64,000 nt of DNA from NCBI GenBank assembly GCA_043798795.1, contig JAZDOJ010000052.1:30940-94939 (forward strand), given 5' to 3'. Below are positions 33,001-39,000 of the stretch, in pieces; the first letter of the stretch is position 1; the number at the start of each line of letters is the position of its first letter. Made by a program: the position numbers. The stretch comes from Candidatus Omnitrophota bacterium (GTDB lineage: Bacteria; Omnitrophota; Gorgyraeia; Gygaellales; Profunditerraquicolaceae).

Positions 33001-36000
33001 AGAAGAGGCCCTCGGCAAGGAAGCCCGGGCCAATTTGAGGTTGATCGTAGCGGCACAAAGGATTTATAAGATAAAGACAAGCGCCTACTTTCCCGTTGCT
33101 GGCGGTACGGAAAGTGACGTAGCATCCATTAATGATAACCTCAAAGTGATGTTGTCTACGGTAGGAGGCCCTAGCCGGGTATGGGATTATCTGGTAGATT
33201 CTTCAGCAGGAAACACCTGCGTTCAGGCCTCAAGAGTTGGTGGGCCTGCAAAAACCTGGAGCTTCCGTAATAACGATCCGGACGGCGACCCTGACCAAGA
33301 TGGTACGTGCCCTTAAAGGAAGAAGGGGCTTCACCTTAATGGAGGCTTTGGTTTCTACGGTGCTCATTTCCCTGGTTTTGGTGGGGTTAGGGAGTCTTTT
33401 TCTGGGGGGAAAAAAATGGATGGGGCACCGTCGTTATCAGATGACGGCGGCCCAGGTAGCCAAGGTTTTTCTAGACCCTTTACAGATGGATGTACGACAG
33501 GATAATTGGGGATCGAACTGCTTAAGCGGTAACGGCTCGAATTGCTCATCCTACGGCACGCATCCTCCTATCAATGGCATAACGTATTCAGCTAATTACA
33601 CCATTAGCCCACCGCCGGTTGATGGAACGAATTTGCGTCGCGTCCAGTTAAATGTCAGTTGGAATGAACCCTCCCCTTAGATGCCCACACGTAAAAGAAG
33701 TTTCGGGGTCACCCTCATTGAATTAACCATTGCCGTCGTTTTGATTTCATTTATTGTCTTAGGGATTGCCAATATCGACACCTTTTATCATTTCCAAGTC
33801 TTGGATGCAGACCGTCGCATCAAAATCCAATTTGAGAACTCCATTGCCTTAGAGCACATGACATACCAGGTGGGAAGGGGTATCGGAGATGCTGCCAATG
33901 CTGTCAATAAACCTGTGGAGTTGCTTCTACCCTCGGGCCCCAACTACCGTGGTGTGAGGGTCTGGGTCGATTTGAACCAAAACGGAAAGCGGGATGATTA
34001 TCCTGAGGACCGTGAAATCGGTTATCTCTTTCAGAATACCTCGAAGGCGATCGAGTACTATAACCCCTGCCGGGGCCCGAGTTGCAATTGGGCAGGAAGC
34101 CTGTTGAATGATACCATAGCTGGTCAGATTGCCGAATGCACCTTTAGTTGGTCTGAGGGCACTGGAAATTTCGTTGATGTCAGCATCACGTCGCGCTTCA
34201 ATGCGTCCATGGCCCCTTCTGTGGATAATCCCGAAATGAATATGTCCGCCCGAATTCAAATGCCCTCCGTATCTACGCATTAAATCATTCTTTCAAATTT
34301 TTGCGTCCTCAATAATTTATTTGCCCGTCTGCAAGAACTATGGTAAATTAATAACACGAAGGGCAAGATTTTCAGGGGCGATAGTTCAGTTGGGAGAACG
34401 CTACATTCGCATTGTAGAGGTCGCGGGTTCAAATCCCGCTCGCTCCACCAAAATTTTCCGACAAGGAAAATTTTGGTGGCACTGAAGCGAGCGTTAAACG
34501 CCCCGACAAGGGGCGTAGCGAGCGTAAGTGCCTTCATGTCATTAACAAGGAAAAATTGCGCCATGACAAATATATTCAGATTATTTCTGGCTCTTGTTTT
34601 ATTTTCATCTCTTCTCATTGCCTGTTTTTATTTGCCGCTGATTTCAGCCGAGGCGCCTCTGAAAGAGGCCCTTTACTATGAAAAACTTGAAAATAAGAAT
34701 GTCCAATGCCATGTCTGTCCCCGGCATTGTGTTATTCCTGAAGGTAAGCGGGGATTCTGCGGGGTCAGAGAGAACCGCGCAGGTACGCTCTTTGCCATAT
34801 CGTACGGGAAACTTGTTTCTGCCCATGTTGACCCTATTGAAAAAAAGCCTCTGTTCCATTTTTATCCTGCCACCACCGCTTTCTCCATTGCCACAGCCGG
34901 GTGCAATCTCAGATGCAAATTCTGTCAGAACTGGGAGATATCTCAGAGAAAACCCGAGGAGGTCCAGTATAGTTATATAGAGCCCCGCGAACTGGTTCAA
35001 AAAGCCAAGGAATCAGGCTCTCCGACTATTGCTTACACCTATACGGAGCCCACGATATTTTACGAGTATATGCTGGAGACAGCCAGACTGGCCAAGCAGG
35101 AAGGCCTCAAGAATATTATGCATTCCTGCGGATATATCAATGAGGAGCCCTTAAGAGAGCTGATTCCGTACCTGGATGCAGCCAACATCGATTTAAAAGG
35201 TTTCAGCGATGATTACTATCAGAAACTCTCAGAAGCAACTCTTGCGCCTGTGTTGAACACGCTCAAAATTTTAAAAAAAGAGGGGGTGCATCTGGAGATA
35301 ACCAATTTACTGTTGCCTGGATTCAATGATGACCCTGAAATCATAACTCAGATGTGCCTTTGGATAAAAGAAAATCTGGGCGTGGATGTGCCGCTTCATT
35401 TTTCCCGTTTTTTTCCGATGTATCAATTGTTAAGCTTAAACCCTACGCCTGTGGCATCTTTGGAAAGGGCACGGAAGATCGCATTAGAGAGCGGATTGAA
35501 ATACGTCTATATAGGTAATGTGGCAGGCCATCCGGCTGAAAATACCTATTGCCCCAGGTGCGGGAAGCTCTTGATCGAACGCAAGGGCTATTTTATCCTG
35601 CAGAACAATATCCAGAATGGAAGGTGTAAATATTGTGGAGAGAGGATTGAGGGAGTCTGGGAGTAAGTTCAAAGTTAAAGCTCGAGGTTCAAAGCTTTTA
35701 ATTTTAAGTTTCAGTTTTGCGCTTTGCGCTTTACGCTTTACGCTTAGCTGTTATGCCCAAGACATAAAAGAACCCAATGTGGCTGGCACTTTTTATCCGG
35801 ATAACCCCGAGGCATTATCCCAAATGATAGACGGCTTCCTTGCCGCGGCAACACCTGAGCCGATCGAAGGGGATATATTCGCTCTTATCTCGCCTCATGC
35901 CGGATACGGGTATTCTGGCCAGGTGGCTGCCTACGGTTATAAATTGATTAAAGGCAAGACCTATAAAACAGTTATTGTCATCGGCACAAGCCACCAATAC

Positions 36001-39000
36001 GGATTTATCGGTGTTTCTGTTTATCCCCAGGGAGCCTTCCGCACGCCCCTGGGGGATCTTTTGATAGATGAGGAGTTTACGCAAAAAATAATCAATAAAG
36101 ACAAACAGATATTCTTTGAGCCGCGCGCTTTTGAAAAAGAACATTCTTTGGAGATCCAATTGCCGTTTTTGCAAAAAACCCTAACGGATTTTAAAATCGT
36201 TCCTATTATTATAGGCGATGGCACCCTGGCCACCTGCCAGAATCTGGCAGGCTTGCTTAAAAGCGCTATCGGAGGGCGCCGGGATGTCCTGGTGGTTGCA
36301 TCCACCGATATGTACCACGGTTATGATTATGATGAGGCGGATAGCGTGGATCAACAGACCCTGTTCTTTTTAAAAAATATGGATGCTCAGGGTCTTTATG
36401 ATGGCCTTCGCGGACGCAAATGCGAGTTGTGCGGAGGTTTTGGTGTGGTTACGGCGATCATGTTAGCCAAAGAATTAGGCCATCAAAAATTGAGTGTATT
36501 AAAACACACCAATTCGGCTTATGTCACGGGTGAAAGAATCAAAGGTCGGTGGACCGTAGGTTACACCAGCTGTGTCATCGACCAGGAAAAAGGAGGAGGG
36601 GCCTTGCTAAATAAAGAACAGAGAAAGAAATTGCTGGAGATTGCCAGAAGTTCTATCGAAACATTTCTAAAGACAGATAAGAAGTTGGAAGTAGCCGTTC
36701 AGGACCCTGCCTTATTGGAAAACATGGGTGCGTTTGTAACCCTGCATGACCGCCAGGGTTTGAGGGGGTGTATCGGCCATTTAATCGGAAAGCAGCCGCT
36801 TTATCTGACTGTCAGGGATATGGCGGTTGAGGCAGCCGTGGATGACCCGCGTTTTTCACCTCTTAAGCTAGCGGAACTTAAGGAAGTTGAGATCGAGATA
36901 TCGGCCCTTTCTCCTTTAAAGAGGGTGGATTCGGCTGACCAGATCCAATTAGGAACTCATGGTGTTTTGATTATCAAAGGCCCAAATAGTGGCGTGTTCC
37001 TGCCGCAGGTCGCCACAGAGACCGGTTGGTCTAAGGAAGAATTCCTCTCTAGCCTCTGTGCTCACAAGGCAGGTCTTCCAGCCGATGCCTGGAAGGATAA
37101 GGCCACTGAAATCTACATATTTACGGCCGAAGTCTTTTCGGAGAAGAGTTATTAGATTGGGCCTATAGTCTATGGTCGATTGTCTATGGTTTTGCGGATT
37201 GAATACTATCGACTATGGACTATCGGCCCATAGGTTCGTTCAATAAAATCTCGATATTAAAAAGTTAAATAAAAGATTAGTAGATATTTATCTAAGTTAG
37301 GTATGACAAGAAATAAACAGGGCAATATCCACATTGTGCTATTCTGGCATATGAACGATTGGGGAAAGTATGGACGTGCTTACGAAAAAATAGCAGAGAA
37401 TCTGTCCAGCTTATCAAGTATAAAAAAAGTGCTTTGCGTATTTCCTCCGAGATGGCTTGGGTATAGCCGTCTGCTACAGCCTTTTCTGCTTAGTAAACTA
37501 TCAAAAAAACTATTTCTCTTGACAATTAACGCTCAATTGATTCCCTCTGGATCTCACAGGAGTCGATTAATACTCAGGATAAAGGGAACAATTTCAAAAT
37601 TTGTATTGGGTCAACTTCTAAAATCAATGGGCTTTAAGAAACAAAATACGATTCTCTGGCTGTTTCCGCCCCATCAATTTATAAATCAGTTGCTGCGCTT
37701 GATTCCCCACCATTTATTAGTTACTCAACTTGCTGATAATAATACATTTAGAGAAGACGATAGCGAGGCCAGGATTTCTTTTGCAAAAAAGCAATATGGG
37801 ACACTTACAATGAGATCCGATATGATTATAACTTCTTCTCAACTTAATTATAGATTGTTCCATTCACAAAATCCAAACTGTTATCTTTTTGAAAATGGTC
37901 TTGATCCTATATTTGTAAGCTGTCCATCAAAACTTCCATATTTAAGGAATCATGCCCGACCTTGCCTTGGCTATGTCGGTTTTATTTCACAGAGAACAGA
38001 CATCAAACTGTTAGATTATATTGCAAGAGCCAGGCCTGAATACGATTTAATAATTGCCGGCCCTCAGGAAGAAAAACTAAATGAATATGGGACATTAAAT
38101 CTTCCCAACGTGACCTATGCAGGGGTTATTCCTTATAAAGAGCTGCCTAGGCTTCTCAGCAATATTGATGTTTGCCTCATGCCACACAAAGATACGCCTT
38201 ATTCTAACTCTATGAGCCCTTTAAAGTTGTTACAGTATCTTGGGACTGGCAGGCCCATAGTTTCAACCCCAGTGGACGGAGCTAAACGATGGGATGGATT
38301 GATTTCAATTGCCAACGATTATCAGGATTTCTTAAAAAAAATAGATACAGCATTAAATGAAGACCATGAAAACTTAAGCTCAAAACGGATTGAAGCAGCC
38401 AAATTGGAAACTTGGGAAAAGTGGGTGGGTGATGTTTTTGAAGTTGTTGTGAGACATTTTAAAGAAAGAAAAGCATATTAGAGAAATGGATAAAGTTCCT
38501 GATGTTTCAATCGTAATCCTCACAAAAAACGGAGGAAGTTCACTAAGAGAATCAATAAAAAGGATATTTTCTCAAAAGGTTCCTTTTGTATATGAGGTTA
38601 TAATTATCGATTCGGGTTCCACCGATGACACACTGAATTTTCTGAAATCTTATCCGGTAAGATTATTTCAAATTGAGCCTAAAGATTTTTCTTTTGGGCC
38701 GACGCGTGACTTTGGATTCAGCCAGGCGAGGGGGGAATATATTGTTACCGTATCGCAAGACGTTGTCCCTGCGGATAATAACTGGCTGCAAAACTTAGTC
38801 ATTCCACTCATCCATGATGAAGCTGACGCAGTCCAGGGGGAGAATATCGCTCCCGATGACGAAAAAACATTCTTCTGGGAGAAAATCGACTGGTTTTATT
38901 TCACAAATGAAAGCACTGAATTTAACAAATCCAACGGAGGTATATTTTTATCATGCACTCATTTAGCTATCAAGAAACGGGTATGGGAAGAAGCCCATTT

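What the first reader, a model, noticed from the sequence alone, without database searches (positions are those of the whole stretch)
34375..37155. AmmeMemoRadiSam module next to tRNA-Ala with a MEMO-AMMECR1 fusion and hydrophobic N-termini
A radical SAM enzyme with the AmrS-type CxxxCxxC region and extra N-terminal Cys motifs is followed by a single ORF that fuses a MEMO1-like domain (AmrB) to an AMMECR1 domain (AmrA). The three components are usually separate genes. The radical SAM ORF has a hydrophobic, signal-like N-terminus (MTNIFRLFLALVLFSSLLIACFYLPLISAEA). The substrate of AmmeMemoRadiSam systems is still unknown, so a compact two-gene fused version next to a tRNA and a low-GC glycosyltransferase island is worth noting.
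Basis: partly seen in the sequence, partly recalled or inferred. Interest (0 to 1): 0.55.

Follow-up and report, generated by a model that had tools for sequence, protein, structure and literature searches.

The report
Export-tagged AmmeMemoRadiSam module with membrane partner
This is a genuine but ordinary member of the known, function-unknown AmmeMemoRadiSam enzyme system; the fused second gene is the norm in this lineage, and the notable point is that both proteins carry conserved export or anchor signals and travel with a cysteine-bearing membrane protein, which suggests the system works outside the cytoplasm.

Summary
tRNA-Ala(CGC) lies at 34375-34450. amrS (34563-35666) scores 393 bits on TIGR04337 (cutoff 220). 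A single ORF (35617/35647-37155) joins Memo (TIGR04336) to AMMECR1 (TIGR04335).

The B-A fusion is not unusual. The exact protein is already named in NCBI. All 120 best homologues are fused, and so are 37 of 80 AmrS loci from many phyla. Only two of those loci show separate genes.

The hydrophobic N-termini are real and conserved. AmrBA has a classic signal-peptidase-I site, with Ala at -1 in 97 of 112 homologues. AmrS has a non-RR signal or anchor. Across the family, about 47 of 81 AmrS proteins carry canonical twin-arginine signals instead. In every locus where AmrS has a signal and a fused partner is present (27), the partner has one too.

The non-RR type, including this window, is tied to a DsbD_2 membrane protein (39445-40104) with conserved transmembrane cysteines. 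It is adjacent in 14 of 17 such loci against 0 of 64 others. In a reverse search it was adjacent in 75 of 75 loci with room.

In this window two low-GC glycosyltransferase genes were inserted between amrBA and that partner.

Best reading: an extracytoplasmic radical SAM module fed reductant through the membrane. The substrate is still unknown.

The parts
34375..34450 (+). tRNA-Ala (anticodon CGC), immediately upstream of amrS
   Evidence: ARAGORN and Rfam tRNA at 70.1 bits. The same tRNA precedes amrS in L001, L003, L004, L081 and L084, so this is conserved synteny of a subclade rather than a functional part.
34445..34532 (+). Spacer with two strong hairpins between the tRNA and amrS. Both loops read CCGACAAGG. 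The first stem includes the tRNA 3' end.
   Evidence: A 15-nt perfect inverted repeat at 34445-34459 / 34465-34479. Minimum free energy -54.7 kcal/mol, z = -7.7. The 9-mer occurs 3 times in the window against 0.37 expected. Relatives with a 13-20 nt spacer lack it. No Rfam family besides the tRNA. Role unknown.
34563..35666 (+). amrS: AmmeMemoRadiSam radical SAM enzyme, 367 aa
   Evidence: TIGR04337 at 393 bits against a cutoff of 220, and PF04055 at 88 bits. The start is set by homologue N-termini. An AAGGA sequence lies 11 nt upstream.
34563..34649 (+). AmrS N-terminal signal or anchor segment (aa 1-29: MTNIFR | LFLALVLFSSLLIAC FYLP | LISA)
   Evidence: There is no RR motif. Among 113 assessable Omnitrophota homologues, a Cys is present in 107, the C-F-Y-L-P motif in 91, a strict lipobox in 42, and an AXA-like end in 101. 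All 38 assessable AmrS proteins next to DsbD_2 in metagenomes are hydrophobic; 35 have no RR and the 3 RR flags lie upstream of the start Met.
34707..34760 (+). AmrS N-terminal Cys motif C49-x2-C52-x3-C56-x9-C66 (auxiliary cluster or metal site)
   Evidence: C49, C56 and C66 are invariant and C52 is at least 90% conserved in 33 diverse AmrS proteins.
34902..34925 (+). Radical SAM CX3CX2C motif (C114, C118, C121; GCNLRCKFCQNW)
   Evidence: Invariant columns in alignment A1 and the PF04055 match.
35550..35636 (+). AmrS C-terminal CxxC...CxxC motif (C330, C333, C355, C358)
   Evidence: Invariant or nearly invariant. Weak zinc-ribbon hit.
35617..37155 (+). amrBA: fused Memo-AMMECR1 protein. It overlaps the amrS 3' end by 50 nt from ATG 35617, or by 20 nt from TTG 35647, which has GGAG 6 nt upstream.
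   Evidence: It is 100% identical to NCBI protein P0001.
35617..35757 (+). AmrBA signal peptide (...KFKVKARGSK LLILSFSFALCALRFTLS CYA | QDIKEPNVAG)
   Evidence: Consensus [C/S/G]-[F/Y]-A | Q-[D/E]-[I/V]-K-x-P-N in 112 homologues. Ala occupies -1 in 97 and a small residue occupies -3 in 97. This segment is deleted exactly in triple fusion P0068, which reads GVWD-YIKQPNAAG.
35767..36576 (+). Memo (AmrB) domain
   Evidence: TIGR04336 at 247.9 bits and PF01875 at 203 bits. The MEMO1 alignment (3bcz, E 1e-17) shows conserved PHAGY, SH and D..H ligand positions.
36628..37137 (+). AMMECR1 (AmrA) domain with the LRGCIG motif
   Evidence: TIGR04335 at 175.3 bits and PF01871 at 183 bits. PH0010 (1vaj) at E 7e-37 with LRGCIG aligned.
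37303..39349 (+). Two low-GC glycosyltransferase genes (GT1-type 37303-38481; GT2-type 38486-39349), inserted into the module
   Evidence: GC 0.385-0.393 and Pfam GT families. The insertion is absent between amrBA and DsbD_2 in L001-L005, L081-L084, the closest relatives L086/L087, and most of 75 metagenome loci.
39445..40104 (+). DsbD_2-family polytopic membrane protein, the proposed fourth component (thiol or electron conduit)
   Evidence: PF13386 at 77 bits. C20 (GPC) and C136 (LPCAP) are invariant and C24 nearly so in 14 orthologues from several phyla. It is adjacent to the module in 14 of 17 non-RR loci and 0 of 64 others. In the reverse search, 75 of 75 loci with room have amrBA or amrS directly upstream.
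40101..42054 (+). rsmE (40101-40841) and mtaB (40828-42054), conserved downstream synteny in the Omnitrophota subclade
   Evidence: TIGR00046 and TIGR01579 above cutoff. The same order appears in L001-L005, L081-L085. These are probably neighbours by descent, not parts of the module.

Best explanation
The locus encodes a complete AmmeMemoRadiSam module of the export-tagged kind, in four linked genes or domains.

1. **AmrS.** A PFL-activase-like radical SAM enzyme with the canonical CX3CX2C cluster site and two further 4-Cys sites. It carries an N-terminal non-twin-arginine signal or anchor.
2. **AmrBA.** One polypeptide joining a Memo domain, with its metal-ligand His/His/Asp/His positions intact, to an AMMECR1 domain with its LRGCIG motif intact. 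It sits behind a cleavable Sec (signal peptidase I) signal peptide.
3. **DsbD_2 protein.** A family membrane protein with CcdA-like transmembrane cysteines. In this genome it is separated from the module by a recent two-gene glycosyltransferase insertion.

**Proposed working:** both soluble components act on the outer face of the cytoplasmic membrane or in the periplasm, on an envelope-associated substrate. AmrS generates a 5'-deoxyadenosyl radical, and AmrBA supplies the metal-dependent and substrate-handling chemistry. The DsbD_2 protein passes reducing equivalents across the membrane. These would keep the twelve cluster cysteines of a Sec-exported AmrS reduced and/or feed its cluster. In Tat-type relatives the enzyme would instead be exported already folded with its clusters, so they would not need this protein.

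**Shown:** family membership, conserved catalytic motifs, conservation of the signals, co-occurrence of signals on both partners, and the DsbD_2 linkage.

**Inferred:** actual export and topology, the redox role of DsbD_2, and how SAM and Fe-S clusters reach the enzyme. The substrate remains unknown.
For: **Identity.** TIGR04337 393 bits (cutoff 220), TIGR04336 248 bits (cutoff 26), TIGR04335 175 bits (cutoff 99). Cysteine motifs are invariant. MEMO1 ligand positions and LRGCIG are conserved.

**Signals are translated and conserved.**
- The AmrBA signal-peptidase-I consensus holds in 112 homologues.
- The AmrS hydrophobic N-terminus is present in 113 Omnitrophota homologues and in 38 of 38 metagenome loci.

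**Family-wide export pattern.**
- Canonical [S/T]RRxF[L/I]K Tat signals occur on about 47 of 81 AmrS proteins from many bacterial phyla and two archaeal phyla. All sampled members still hit TIGR04337.
- By my reading, partner signals co-occur in 27 of 27 loci where AmrS has a signal. Four loci have no signal on either protein and three are mixed. The automated table gives [[25,1],[4,4]], p = 0.007.

**Same compartment.** Triple fusion P0068, identical in 4 independent assemblies, keeps the AmrS N-terminal segment and deletes exactly the AmrBA signal peptide.

**DsbD_2 link.**
- Adjacent in 14 of 17 non-RR loci against 0 of 64 others (automated [[11,3],[3,64]], p = 1e-8).
- The pairing appears on at least 3-4 branches of a rough NJ tree and in both gene orders.
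- In the reverse search from DsbD_2, 75 of 75 loci with room have amrBA or amrS directly upstream.
- The transmembrane cysteines are invariant.

**Redox context.**
- In L009-L011 the DsbD_2 domain is fused to an FMN_bind domain and a NapH/NosR-type Fer4_5 domain.
- NosR-like polyferredoxins flank the AmrS gene in L053 (Tat-type) and L074 (no signal detected).
Against: - No dedicated signal or topology predictor (SignalP, TatP, DeepTMHMM) was available. Classes rest on motif and hydropathy rules.
- Pfam TAT_signal hits on the RR N-termini are sub-threshold (E 0.007-0.8).
- To my knowledge, no Fe-S protein is known to be matured after Sec export, and SAM is not known outside the cytoplasm. A working Sec-exported radical SAM enzyme would therefore be unprecedented.
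- PF13386 also contains permeases. The window protein's only NCBIfam hit is a weak ArsG efflux permease match (25.8 bits against a cutoff of 200), so a transport role is possible.
- In L016 and L018, a Tat-type AmrS sits beside a separate AMMECR1 with no signal.
- L096 and L124 have amrBA-DsbD_2 with no amrS in the 2.3-2.5 kb upstream.
- The association statistics ignore phylogenetic non-independence.
- No experimental data exist for any member.
Confidence: 0.55

Rival explanations
1. Membrane-tethered but cytoplasmic. The N-terminal hydrophobic segment of AmrS is an uncleaved anchor with its N-terminus outside, which holds the radical SAM domain at the inner face of the membrane. SAM, Fe-S assembly and flavodoxin are available there. 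DsbD_2 then relays something to a periplasmic AmrBA.
For: In several non-RR lineages the AmrS h-region is long enough (18-22 residues) to be a transmembrane helix and has no clear cleavage site (L007-L011, L052, L069). This reading avoids the unprecedented requirement for Fe-S assembly and SAM outside the cell. A conserved Cys lies in the segment in 107 of 113 homologues, but a strict lipobox in only 42 of 113.
Against: Positive charges sit before the helix (MKNxxR/K) and the flank after it is neutral or acidic, which favours N-in/C-out. Homologous AmrS proteins carry canonical Tat export signals. The triple fusion keeps AmrS and AmrBA on one chain with no second transmembrane segment, while free AmrBA has a cleavable Sec signal, so the two must share a compartment.
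Confidence: 0.2
2. Ordinary cytoplasmic AmmeMemoRadiSam system with mis-set gene starts. The real starts lie downstream, for example TTG at AmrS codon 24, and the hydrophobic stretches are not translated.
For: An in-frame TTG exists at codon 24 of amrS. The amrBA start is ambiguous between ATG 35617 and TTG 35647. The MEN/VNF... extension annotated on many AmrBA proteins overlaps the amrS 3' end and is probably not translated.
Against: The open frame and the hydrophobic character are preserved despite sequence divergence in 113 Omnitrophota homologues plus 38 metagenome AmrS, and in 112 plus 47 AmrBA. A conserved -3/-1 cleavage motif is directly followed by the conserved mature N-terminus. Every candidate amrBA start retains the signal peptide. 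Cytoplasmic relatives simply begin at MKEALFY.
Confidence: 0.03
3. The DsbD_2 gene is not a redox partner. It is a small-molecule or metal permease, or just a syntenic neighbour. Examples would be an exporter of the module's product or an importer/exporter of a cofactor such as SAM or iron.
For: PF13386 includes permeases, and the only NCBIfam hit is a weak ArsG efflux permease match. In Omnitrophota the gene lies in a block with the housekeeping genes rsmE and mtaB.
Against: The linkage survives changes of gene order (upstream or downstream of amrS) and spans several phyla. It is exclusive to the non-RR class. The CcdA-like transmembrane Cys pair is invariant. The fusions are to FMN_bind and NapH-like Fe-S domains. 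A transport role linked to the module would still make it a component.
Confidence: 0.2

Closest known systems
AmmeMemoRadiSam system (NCBIfam/TIGRFAM TIGR04337 radical SAM enzyme, TIGR04336 protein B, TIGR04335 protein A)
   Same: All three models are hit above their curated cutoffs. The genes are adjacent, co-oriented and overlapping. The catalytic motifs are intact.
   Different: From memory of the model descriptions, the system is described as three separate genes with no localisation. Here B and A are one polypeptide, both proteins carry N-terminal export or anchor signals, and a DsbD_2 membrane protein is a constant fourth partner. Biochemical function is unknown for every member.
Glycyl-radical-enzyme activases (PflA TIGR02493, NrdG TIGR02495; PDB 3c8f)
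   Same: They are the nearest characterised radical SAM relatives: 57-65 bits on the models, and E 2e-7 to PFL-AE in the PDB. They share the CX3CX2C site near the N-terminus of the core. This suggests a protein or a bound macromolecule could be the substrate.
   Different: Scores are far below those families' cutoffs. AmrS has two extra 4-Cys motifs and an export signal. No glycyl-radical enzyme partner is present.
Human MEMO1 (PDB 3bcz, 7kq8) and the LigB/PCAD-Memo superfamily
   Same: Same fold family (E 1e-17), with the His, His and Asp..His metal-ligand positions conserved.
   Different: MEMO1 is a cytosolic, stand-alone eukaryotic protein. Here the domain is secreted and fused to AMMECR1. 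The region around MEMO1 Cys244 was not covered by the alignment.
AMMECR1 family (human AMMECR1; archaeal PH0010 1vaj, MM0484 1zq7, ST0229 1wsc)
   Same: E 7e-37 to PH0010, with the LRGCIG motif aligned.
   Different: The solved archaeal proteins are free-standing and have no signal peptide. Function is unknown in all of them.
CcdA/DsbD thiol-reductant pathway of cytochrome c maturation (System II)
   Same: A small polytopic membrane protein of the DsbD superfamily with one essential-looking Cys in an early and one in a later transmembrane segment, each beside a Pro (GPC, LPCAP). It is encoded next to a Sec-exported, cysteine-rich cofactor protein.
   Different: There is no hit to a CcdA-specific model, and an extra CxxxC lies in TM1. 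No thioredoxin-like periplasmic partner was seen. The client would be an Fe-S enzyme rather than an apocytochrome. This is a resemblance in logic, not demonstrated membership.
NosR/NapH-type membrane polyferredoxins with a periplasmic FMN_bind domain
   Same: In L009-L011 the DsbD_2 domain is fused to FMN_bind plus Fer4_5. In L053 and L074, NosR/NapH-like proteins flank the module. This is the same logic of delivering electrons to an extracytoplasmic enzyme.
   Different: No such domain is present in this window. The window protein is the DsbD_2 domain alone.

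Membership tests
AmmeMemoRadiSam system | Radical SAM enzyme matching TIGR04337 above its curated cutoff, with CX3CX2C | tested here: met
   393 bits against a cutoff of 220. C114/C118/C121 are invariant.
AmmeMemoRadiSam system | Memo-like protein B (TIGR04336 / PF01875) | tested here: met
   247.9 bits against a cutoff of 26, and PF01875 at 203 bits. MEMO1 ligand positions are conserved.
AmmeMemoRadiSam system | AMMECR1-like protein A (TIGR04335 / PF01871) with LRGCIG | tested here: met
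   175.3 bits against a cutoff of 99, and PF01871 at 183 bits. LRGCIG aligns to PH0010.
AmmeMemoRadiSam system | The components are encoded together | tested here: met
   amrS and amrBA are co-oriented and overlap by 20-50 nt. The same pairing occurs in 37 of 80 related loci.
AmmeMemoRadiSam system | Shared biochemical activity or substrate | not testable with these tools
   No activity is known for any member. No relevant paper was found in the searchable corpus.
Tat (twin-arginine) exported substrate | [S/T]-R-R-x-F-L-K motif before a moderately hydrophobic h-region | tested here: not met
   The window AmrS starts MTNIFRLFLALV with no RR, and it has no TAT_signal hit. Only 3 of 113 close homologues have RR. 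About 47 of 81 more distant AmrS proteins do have it.
Sec signal peptide cleaved by signal peptidase I (AmrBA) | Positive n-region, hydrophobic h-region, and small residues at -3 and -1 before the mature protein | tested here: met
   KFKVKARGSK / LLILSFSFALCALRFTLS / C-Y-A | QD. Ala occupies -1 in 97 of 112 homologues and a small residue occupies -3 in 97 of 112. This is a rule-based test, since no SignalP was available.
Bacterial lipoprotein (AmrS N-terminus) | Lipobox [LVI][ASTVI][GAS]C at the end of the h-region | tested here: inconclusive
   The window has L-I-A-C21, which fits. However, only 42 of 113 homologues fit the strict lipobox although 107 keep a Cys. An I-S-A | E signal-peptidase-I-like site follows it.
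CcdA/DsbD-type transmembrane thiol-disulfide transporter | DsbD-superfamily membrane domain with a conserved Cys in each of two transmembrane segments | tested here: inconclusive
   PF13386 at 77 bits. C20 and C136 are invariant and flanked by Pro. There is no CcdA-specific model hit, only a weak ArsG permease hit. Redox activity cannot be tested here.

The most novel reading that the evidence does not exclude
A radical SAM enzyme works outside the cytoplasm. Across many phyla the AmmeMemoRadiSam system would be a periplasmic or outer-face machine. In Tat-type lineages AmrS would be exported folded with its clusters. In the Sec/anchor-type lineage represented here, it would be exported unfolded and then matured, or kept reduced, outside the cell with help from a dedicated DsbD_2-family membrane protein. 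That implies extracytoplasmic Fe-S handling and a route for SAM or electrons across the membrane, neither of which is known.
Probability: 0.3. Interest if true: 0.85.

Novelty: new variant of a known kind. Interest (0 to 1): 0.5.

Why it matters
AmmeMemoRadiSam is one of the most widespread radical SAM systems without a known substrate. Its two partner domains are the prokaryotic counterparts of the human proteins MEMO1 and AMMECR1, whose biochemistry is also unresolved.

**Why the result is useful:**
- If a large part of the family is export-tagged on all components, the substrate search narrows to envelope or periplasmic molecules.
- The non-Tat form, including this locus, always brings a cysteine-bearing membrane protein. 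This raises a sharp, testable question: how does a radical SAM enzyme obtain clusters, electrons and SAM outside the cytoplasm?

**What is not important:**
- The locus itself is ordinary and already annotated.

Tried and rejected
- **Riboswitch or known RNA between the tRNA and amrS.** An Rfam scan of 33900-35000 found only the tRNA. The two hairpins there are specific to this window and its close relatives and remain unexplained.
- **Other conserved partners inside the window.** I looked for the membrane SpeE-like protein, Tat-signal DUF362, NosR-like polyferredoxins, RseC and MTA phosphorylase. tblastn found none in the 64 kb.
- **Pfam TAT_signal as an objective Tat test.** It gave only sub-threshold hits, so the Tat class rests on the motif itself.
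- **Pattern search with the 14-sequence DsbD_2 alignment.** It failed for lack of a conserved stretch and was repeated with 7 closer sequences.
- **Literature.** No paper in the corpus deals with the system's function, with periplasmic or Tat-exported radical SAM enzymes, or with prokaryotic AMMECR1. The key comparative paper (Burroughs et al. 2019, J Biol Chem 294:10211, cited in PMC7159879) is not held. I cannot exclude that it already reports the signals or the neighbours.
- **Anaerobic sulfatase-maturase or SPASM-type identity.** Rejected: TIGR04337 wins by more than 300 bits, and no SPASM-family model comes near its cutoff (the best, StsB, scores 29 bits against a cutoff of 625).
- **Functional link to the type IV pilus / T2SS genes upstream or the glycosyltransferases downstream.** Rejected. 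The pilus genes are syntenic only within the subclade. The glycosyltransferases are an insertion absent from the closest relatives.
- **Structure prediction.** Not run, because the tool returns no coordinates or contacts that would bear on topology.

Full report
**1. What is in the sequence**

ARAGORN finds one tRNA in the window, tRNA-Ala(CGC) at 34375-34450 on the + strand. Rfam confirms it.

The radical SAM ORF follows. Its mechanical form is 34473-35666. The start supported by homologues is ATG 34563, because the protein MTNIFRLF... lines up with the MKNxxR/KL... starts of more than 100 relatives. It scores 393 bits on TIGR04337, the AmmeMemoRadiSam radical SAM enzyme model, against a curated cutoff of 220. 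The next families are glycyl-radical activases at 54-65 bits, far below their cutoffs.

In an alignment of 33 diverse family members, three cysteine sets are invariant or nearly so:
- the CX3CX2C site at C114/C118/C121
- an N-terminal set at C49/C52/C56/C66
- a C-terminal CxxC...CxxC set at C330/C333/C355/C358

The next ORF (35617-37155) carries a Memo domain at aa 51-320 (TIGR04336 247.9 bits; PF01875) and an AMMECR1 domain at aa 338-507 (TIGR04335 175.3 bits; PF01871). The MEMO1 metal-ligand positions (PHAGY His, SH His, D..H) and the AMMECR1 LRGCIG motif are conserved.

**2. The fusion is ordinary**

- The identical 512-aa protein is already in NCBI as 'AmmeMemoRadiSam system protein B' from a Candidatus Omnitrophota MAG.
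- JGI names relatives 'protein B/protein A'.
- All 120 best hits, out of 7,579 with E <= 1e-10, carry both Pfam domains.

I fetched the 80 best species-level loci encoding AmrS relatives. They come from Omnitrophota, Planctomycetota, Desulfobacterota, Nitrospirota, Acidobacteriota, Bacteroidota, Ignavibacteriota, KSB1, Latescibacterota, Chlamydiota, Elusimicrobiota, Verrucomicrobiota and several archaeal phyla. I searched their ORFs with the three domains.
- A fused Memo-AMMECR1 ORF lies near amrS in 37 loci.
- Separate B and/or A genes next to amrS appear only in L016 and L018.
- L077 is a triple fusion.

Further triple fusions are P0068, found identical in four independent assemblies, and L093, L153 and L162. 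So 'usually separate genes' does not hold for this part of the family.

**3. The hydrophobic N-termini are real, conserved and part of a family-wide pattern**

AmrBA: among 112 assessable Omnitrophota homologues, the region before the mature domain ends in [C/S/G]-[F/Y]-A | Q-[D/E]-[I/V]-K-x-P-N. Ala occupies -1 in 97 and a small residue occupies -3 in 97. A lysine/arginine-rich n-region and a hydrophobic core precede it. This is a textbook signal-peptidase-I signal.

AmrS: 113 assessable homologues start M-K/R-N-x-x-K/R followed by about 18 hydrophobic residues.
- 107 have a Cys in this segment.
- 91 have the C-F-Y-L-P motif.
- 42 fit a strict lipobox.
- 101 have an I/L-x-A-like end.
- Only 3 have RR.

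A search of 1.84 billion representative proteins (9,151 hits) shows that the wider family splits in two:
- proteins of about 335 aa that begin directly at MKEALFY
- proteins of about 375-395 aa whose extension is a canonical twin-arginine signal, for example SRRDFIKK, TRREFLQQ, TRRDFLGA, SRREFLKA

In the 81 loci (80 plus the window), my reading of the upstream translations (automated version) gives about 47 Tat-type, 17 non-RR hydrophobic (including the window) and 17 without any signal. All 33 sampled members, Tat-type included, hit TIGR04337. The Pfam TAT_signal and Rieske-Tat models give only sub-threshold hits on the RR N-termini, and none on the window's.

**4. Both partners are targeted together**

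| AmrS signal | AmrBA signal | Loci |
|---|---|---|
| Tat or hydrophobic | Sec or lipobox | 27 |
| none | none | 4 (Bacteroidales L038, L060, L061, L063) |
| none | present | 3 (L017, L059, L075) |

These counts are my reading. The automated table is [[25,1],[4,4]], Fisher p = 0.007.

The triple fusion P0068 keeps the AmrS N-terminal hydrophobic segment but joins ...GVWD directly to YIKQPNAAG. This is exactly the predicted mature N-terminus of AmrBA, so the internal signal peptide is deleted and no second transmembrane segment is added. AmrS and AmrBA must therefore share one compartment. Because free AmrBA has a cleavable Sec signal and many AmrS proteins have Tat signals, that compartment is most simply the periplasm or the outer face of the membrane.

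**5. A fourth component**

Clustering all ORFs of the loci showed that the window gene at 39445-40104 (PF13386 DsbD_2, 77 bits) has orthologues directly beside amrS or amrBA in L001-L006, L009-L011, L013, L035, L052 and L069.
- It is adjacent in 14 of the 17 non-RR loci and in none of the 64 Tat-type or signal-less loci. The automated table is [[11,3],[3,64]], p = 1e-8.
- The pairing occurs on at least three or four branches of a rough NJ tree.
- It occurs in both gene orders.
- Fourteen orthologues share an invariant Cys in an early transmembrane segment (GPC20, usually CxxxC) and another in a later one (LPC136AP), as in CcdA/DsbD.
- In L009-L011 the domain is fused to an FMN_bind domain and a NapH/NosR-type Fer4_5 domain. 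NosR-like polyferredoxins flank the AmrS gene in L053 (Tat-type) and L074 (no signal detected).

As a reverse test I searched metagenome contigs for relatives of the DsbD_2 protein (35-84% identity).
- All 75 loci with any room upstream have amrBA, or its AMMECR1 end, directly upstream.
- 37 of the 40 loci with at least 2.8 kb upstream have the full amrS-amrBA-DsbD_2 order.
- All 38 assessable AmrS proteins there have the hydrophobic N-terminus; 35 lack RR, and the 3 RR flags fall in translation upstream of the start Met.

In the syntenic locus L085 both amrS and DsbD_2 are missing and amrBA remains. In L096 and L124, amrBA and DsbD_2 remain without amrS nearby.

**6. Local anatomy of this window**

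The ancestral order in the subclade is: pilus/T2SS genes, tRNA-Ala, amrS, amrBA, DsbD_2, rsmE, mtaB (L001-L005 and L081-L084). In the window, two glycosyltransferase genes (37303-39349, GC 0.385-0.393) sit between amrBA and DsbD_2. The closest relatives (L086 and L087, DsbD_2 83-84% identical) and nearly all others lack them. The 'low-GC island' is therefore a recent insertion into the module, not a functional neighbour.

The tRNA is inherited synteny. The 112-nt tRNA-amrS spacer is unusual. It holds two strong hairpins with identical CCGACAAGG loops, and the first incorporates the tRNA 3' end. Relatives have spacers of only 13-20 nt.

**7. How it most likely works**

Shown:
- membership of the family
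- intact catalytic motifs
- conserved and co-occurring targeting signals
- a dedicated cysteine-bearing membrane partner

Inferred:
- AmrBA is secreted (about 0.85).
- AmrS is on the same side, either as a cleaved, lipidated or N-in anchored protein (about 0.55-0.6).
- DsbD_2 passes reducing equivalents outward (about 0.4).

For the last point, Sec-exported AmrS has twelve cluster cysteines that must stay reduced. By analogy, CcdA keeps apocytochrome c thiols reduced (my knowledge). Tat-type AmrS would be exported already folded with its clusters and would not need this help, which matches the exclusive distribution of DsbD_2.

AmrS is closest to glycyl-radical activases. A protein or macromolecule-bound substrate, possibly AmrBA itself, is therefore plausible but untested.

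From memory of its abstract, Burroughs et al. 2019 linked Memo contexts to nucleotide-base and isoprenoid modification. I could not read the paper.

Weak points:
- No Fe-S protein is known to mature after Sec export, and SAM is not known in the periplasm (my knowledge).
- No dedicated signal predictor was available.
- PF13386 also includes permeases.
- The statistics ignore shared ancestry.

**8. Other conserved neighbours in the family, not present in this window**

- A polytopic membrane protein of about 720-790 aa with a spermidine-synthase-like domain (PF01564; PRK03612-like / fused MFS-spermidine synthase) lies near amrS in 37 of 80 loci. It is enriched where AmrS has a signal: [[35,28],[2,16]], p = 0.001.
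- A Tat-signal DUF362 protein lies directly upstream of amrS in 7 loci.
- RseC/MucC-like and MTA-phosphorylase-like genes occur in L009 and L010.
- None of these is in the 64-kb window.

**9. Verdict**

The locus is a bona fide, already-annotated AmmeMemoRadiSam module. The fusion is the common state and is not noteworthy. The hydrophobic N-termini are the valuable part of the finding. They belong to a family-wide export pattern: Tat on AmrS in most lineages, a non-RR signal or anchor plus a DsbD_2 partner in this one, and Sec signals on the fused partner. I could not find this pattern described in the accessible literature. I file the locus as a variant of a known kind, with moderate interest driven by the implication of an extracytoplasmic radical SAM enzyme.

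Noticed in passing
window 34445-34532: Two strong hairpins lie between tRNA-Ala and amrS, both with the loop CCGACAAGG. The first is a 15-bp perfect stem that includes the tRNA 3' CCACC. Sequences complementary to the tRNA acceptor 3' strand recur at 34483-34493 and 34512-34524. MFE is -54.7 kcal/mol, z = -7.7. Relatives with 13-20 nt spacers lack this. A few close relatives conserve it, judging from the 'ALKRALN' read-through in P0196 and P0231. There is no Rfam match.
   Followed up: partly
window 15724-15732 (- strand): A third copy of the 9-mer CCGACAAGG (3 in the window against 0.37 expected). It falls in a 1-kb bin with unusual AT skew (-0.223 at 15001-16000). I did not check whether it is also a hairpin loop.
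   Followed up: no
window 37156-39444: A low-GC (0.385-0.393) two-gene glycosyltransferase insertion (TuaH-like GT1 and a GT2) splits amrBA from its DsbD_2 partner. It is absent from the closest relatives (L086, L087). Independent insertions at the same junction occur in L110 (about 1.7 kb) and L160 (about 2.1 kb), so this junction may be an insertion hotspot.
   Followed up: partly
window 25127-34283 and 43247-43654: A type IV pilus / T2SS-like cluster lies directly upstream of the tRNA. It contains a PilM-PilN fusion, PilO, secretin, an MshE-type ATPase, a PilC/GspF protein and four N-methyl-motif pseudopilins. One more prepilin lies at 43247. The cluster is syntenic with L003, L004 and L081-L085.
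   Followed up: partly
L007-L079 (37 of 80 AmrS loci), e.g. L029:2059-4236, L013:7727-9871, L035:8585-10837 (-): A polytopic membrane protein of about 720-790 aa with a spermidine-synthase-like (SAM/dcSAM-binding) domain is a frequent neighbour of amrS. It is enriched where AmrS has an export signal. It is a candidate further component, and possibly relevant to SAM handling at the membrane.
   Followed up: partly
L026-L028, L034, L037, L047, L053 (immediately upstream of amrS): A DUF362 protein with its own twin-arginine signal (for example MRRRAFFKSLIG in L028) lies directly upstream of Tat-type amrS in seven loci.
   Followed up: partly
L009:4021-5763, L010:1744-3432, L011:4075-5739; L053:2338-4248; L074:4222-5610: There are fusion proteins of DsbD_2 + FMN_bind + NapH-like Fer4_5, and NosR/NapH-like polyferredoxins, next to amrS. 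A DUF6599 lipoprotein-like gene sits beside the L053 and L039 versions. These look like transmembrane electron-delivery modules.
   Followed up: partly
P0068 (L081-L084), L077, L093, L153, L162; P0249, P0255; P0241-P0256, P0304-P0390: Fusion states vary widely. rSAM-Memo-AMMECR1 triple fusions occur, both with and without an N-terminal signal. The upstream translations of P0249 and P0255 look like an AMMECR1 C-terminus joined to the rSAM domain. Many 600-1150-aa proteins carry the AmrS domain at either end of large uncharacterised regions.
   Followed up: partly
L016, L018 (Thermodesulfobacteriota / Syntrophobacterales): A Tat-signal AmrS sits next to separate Memo and AMMECR1 genes, and the AMMECR1 has no signal. 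This could be a Tat 'hitchhiker' arrangement or an exception to the co-export pattern.
   Followed up: no
L085 (P0058); L096, L124: The same syntenic slot can hold amrBA alone (L085, with amrS and DsbD_2 both missing) or amrBA + DsbD_2 without a nearby amrS (L096, L124). This suggests the components can be lost or relocated.
   Followed up: partly
window 44001-45000: Strongly negative AT skew (-0.324) and negative GC skew inside the + strand TPR-repeat gene at 43738-45759. Not examined.
   Followed up: no
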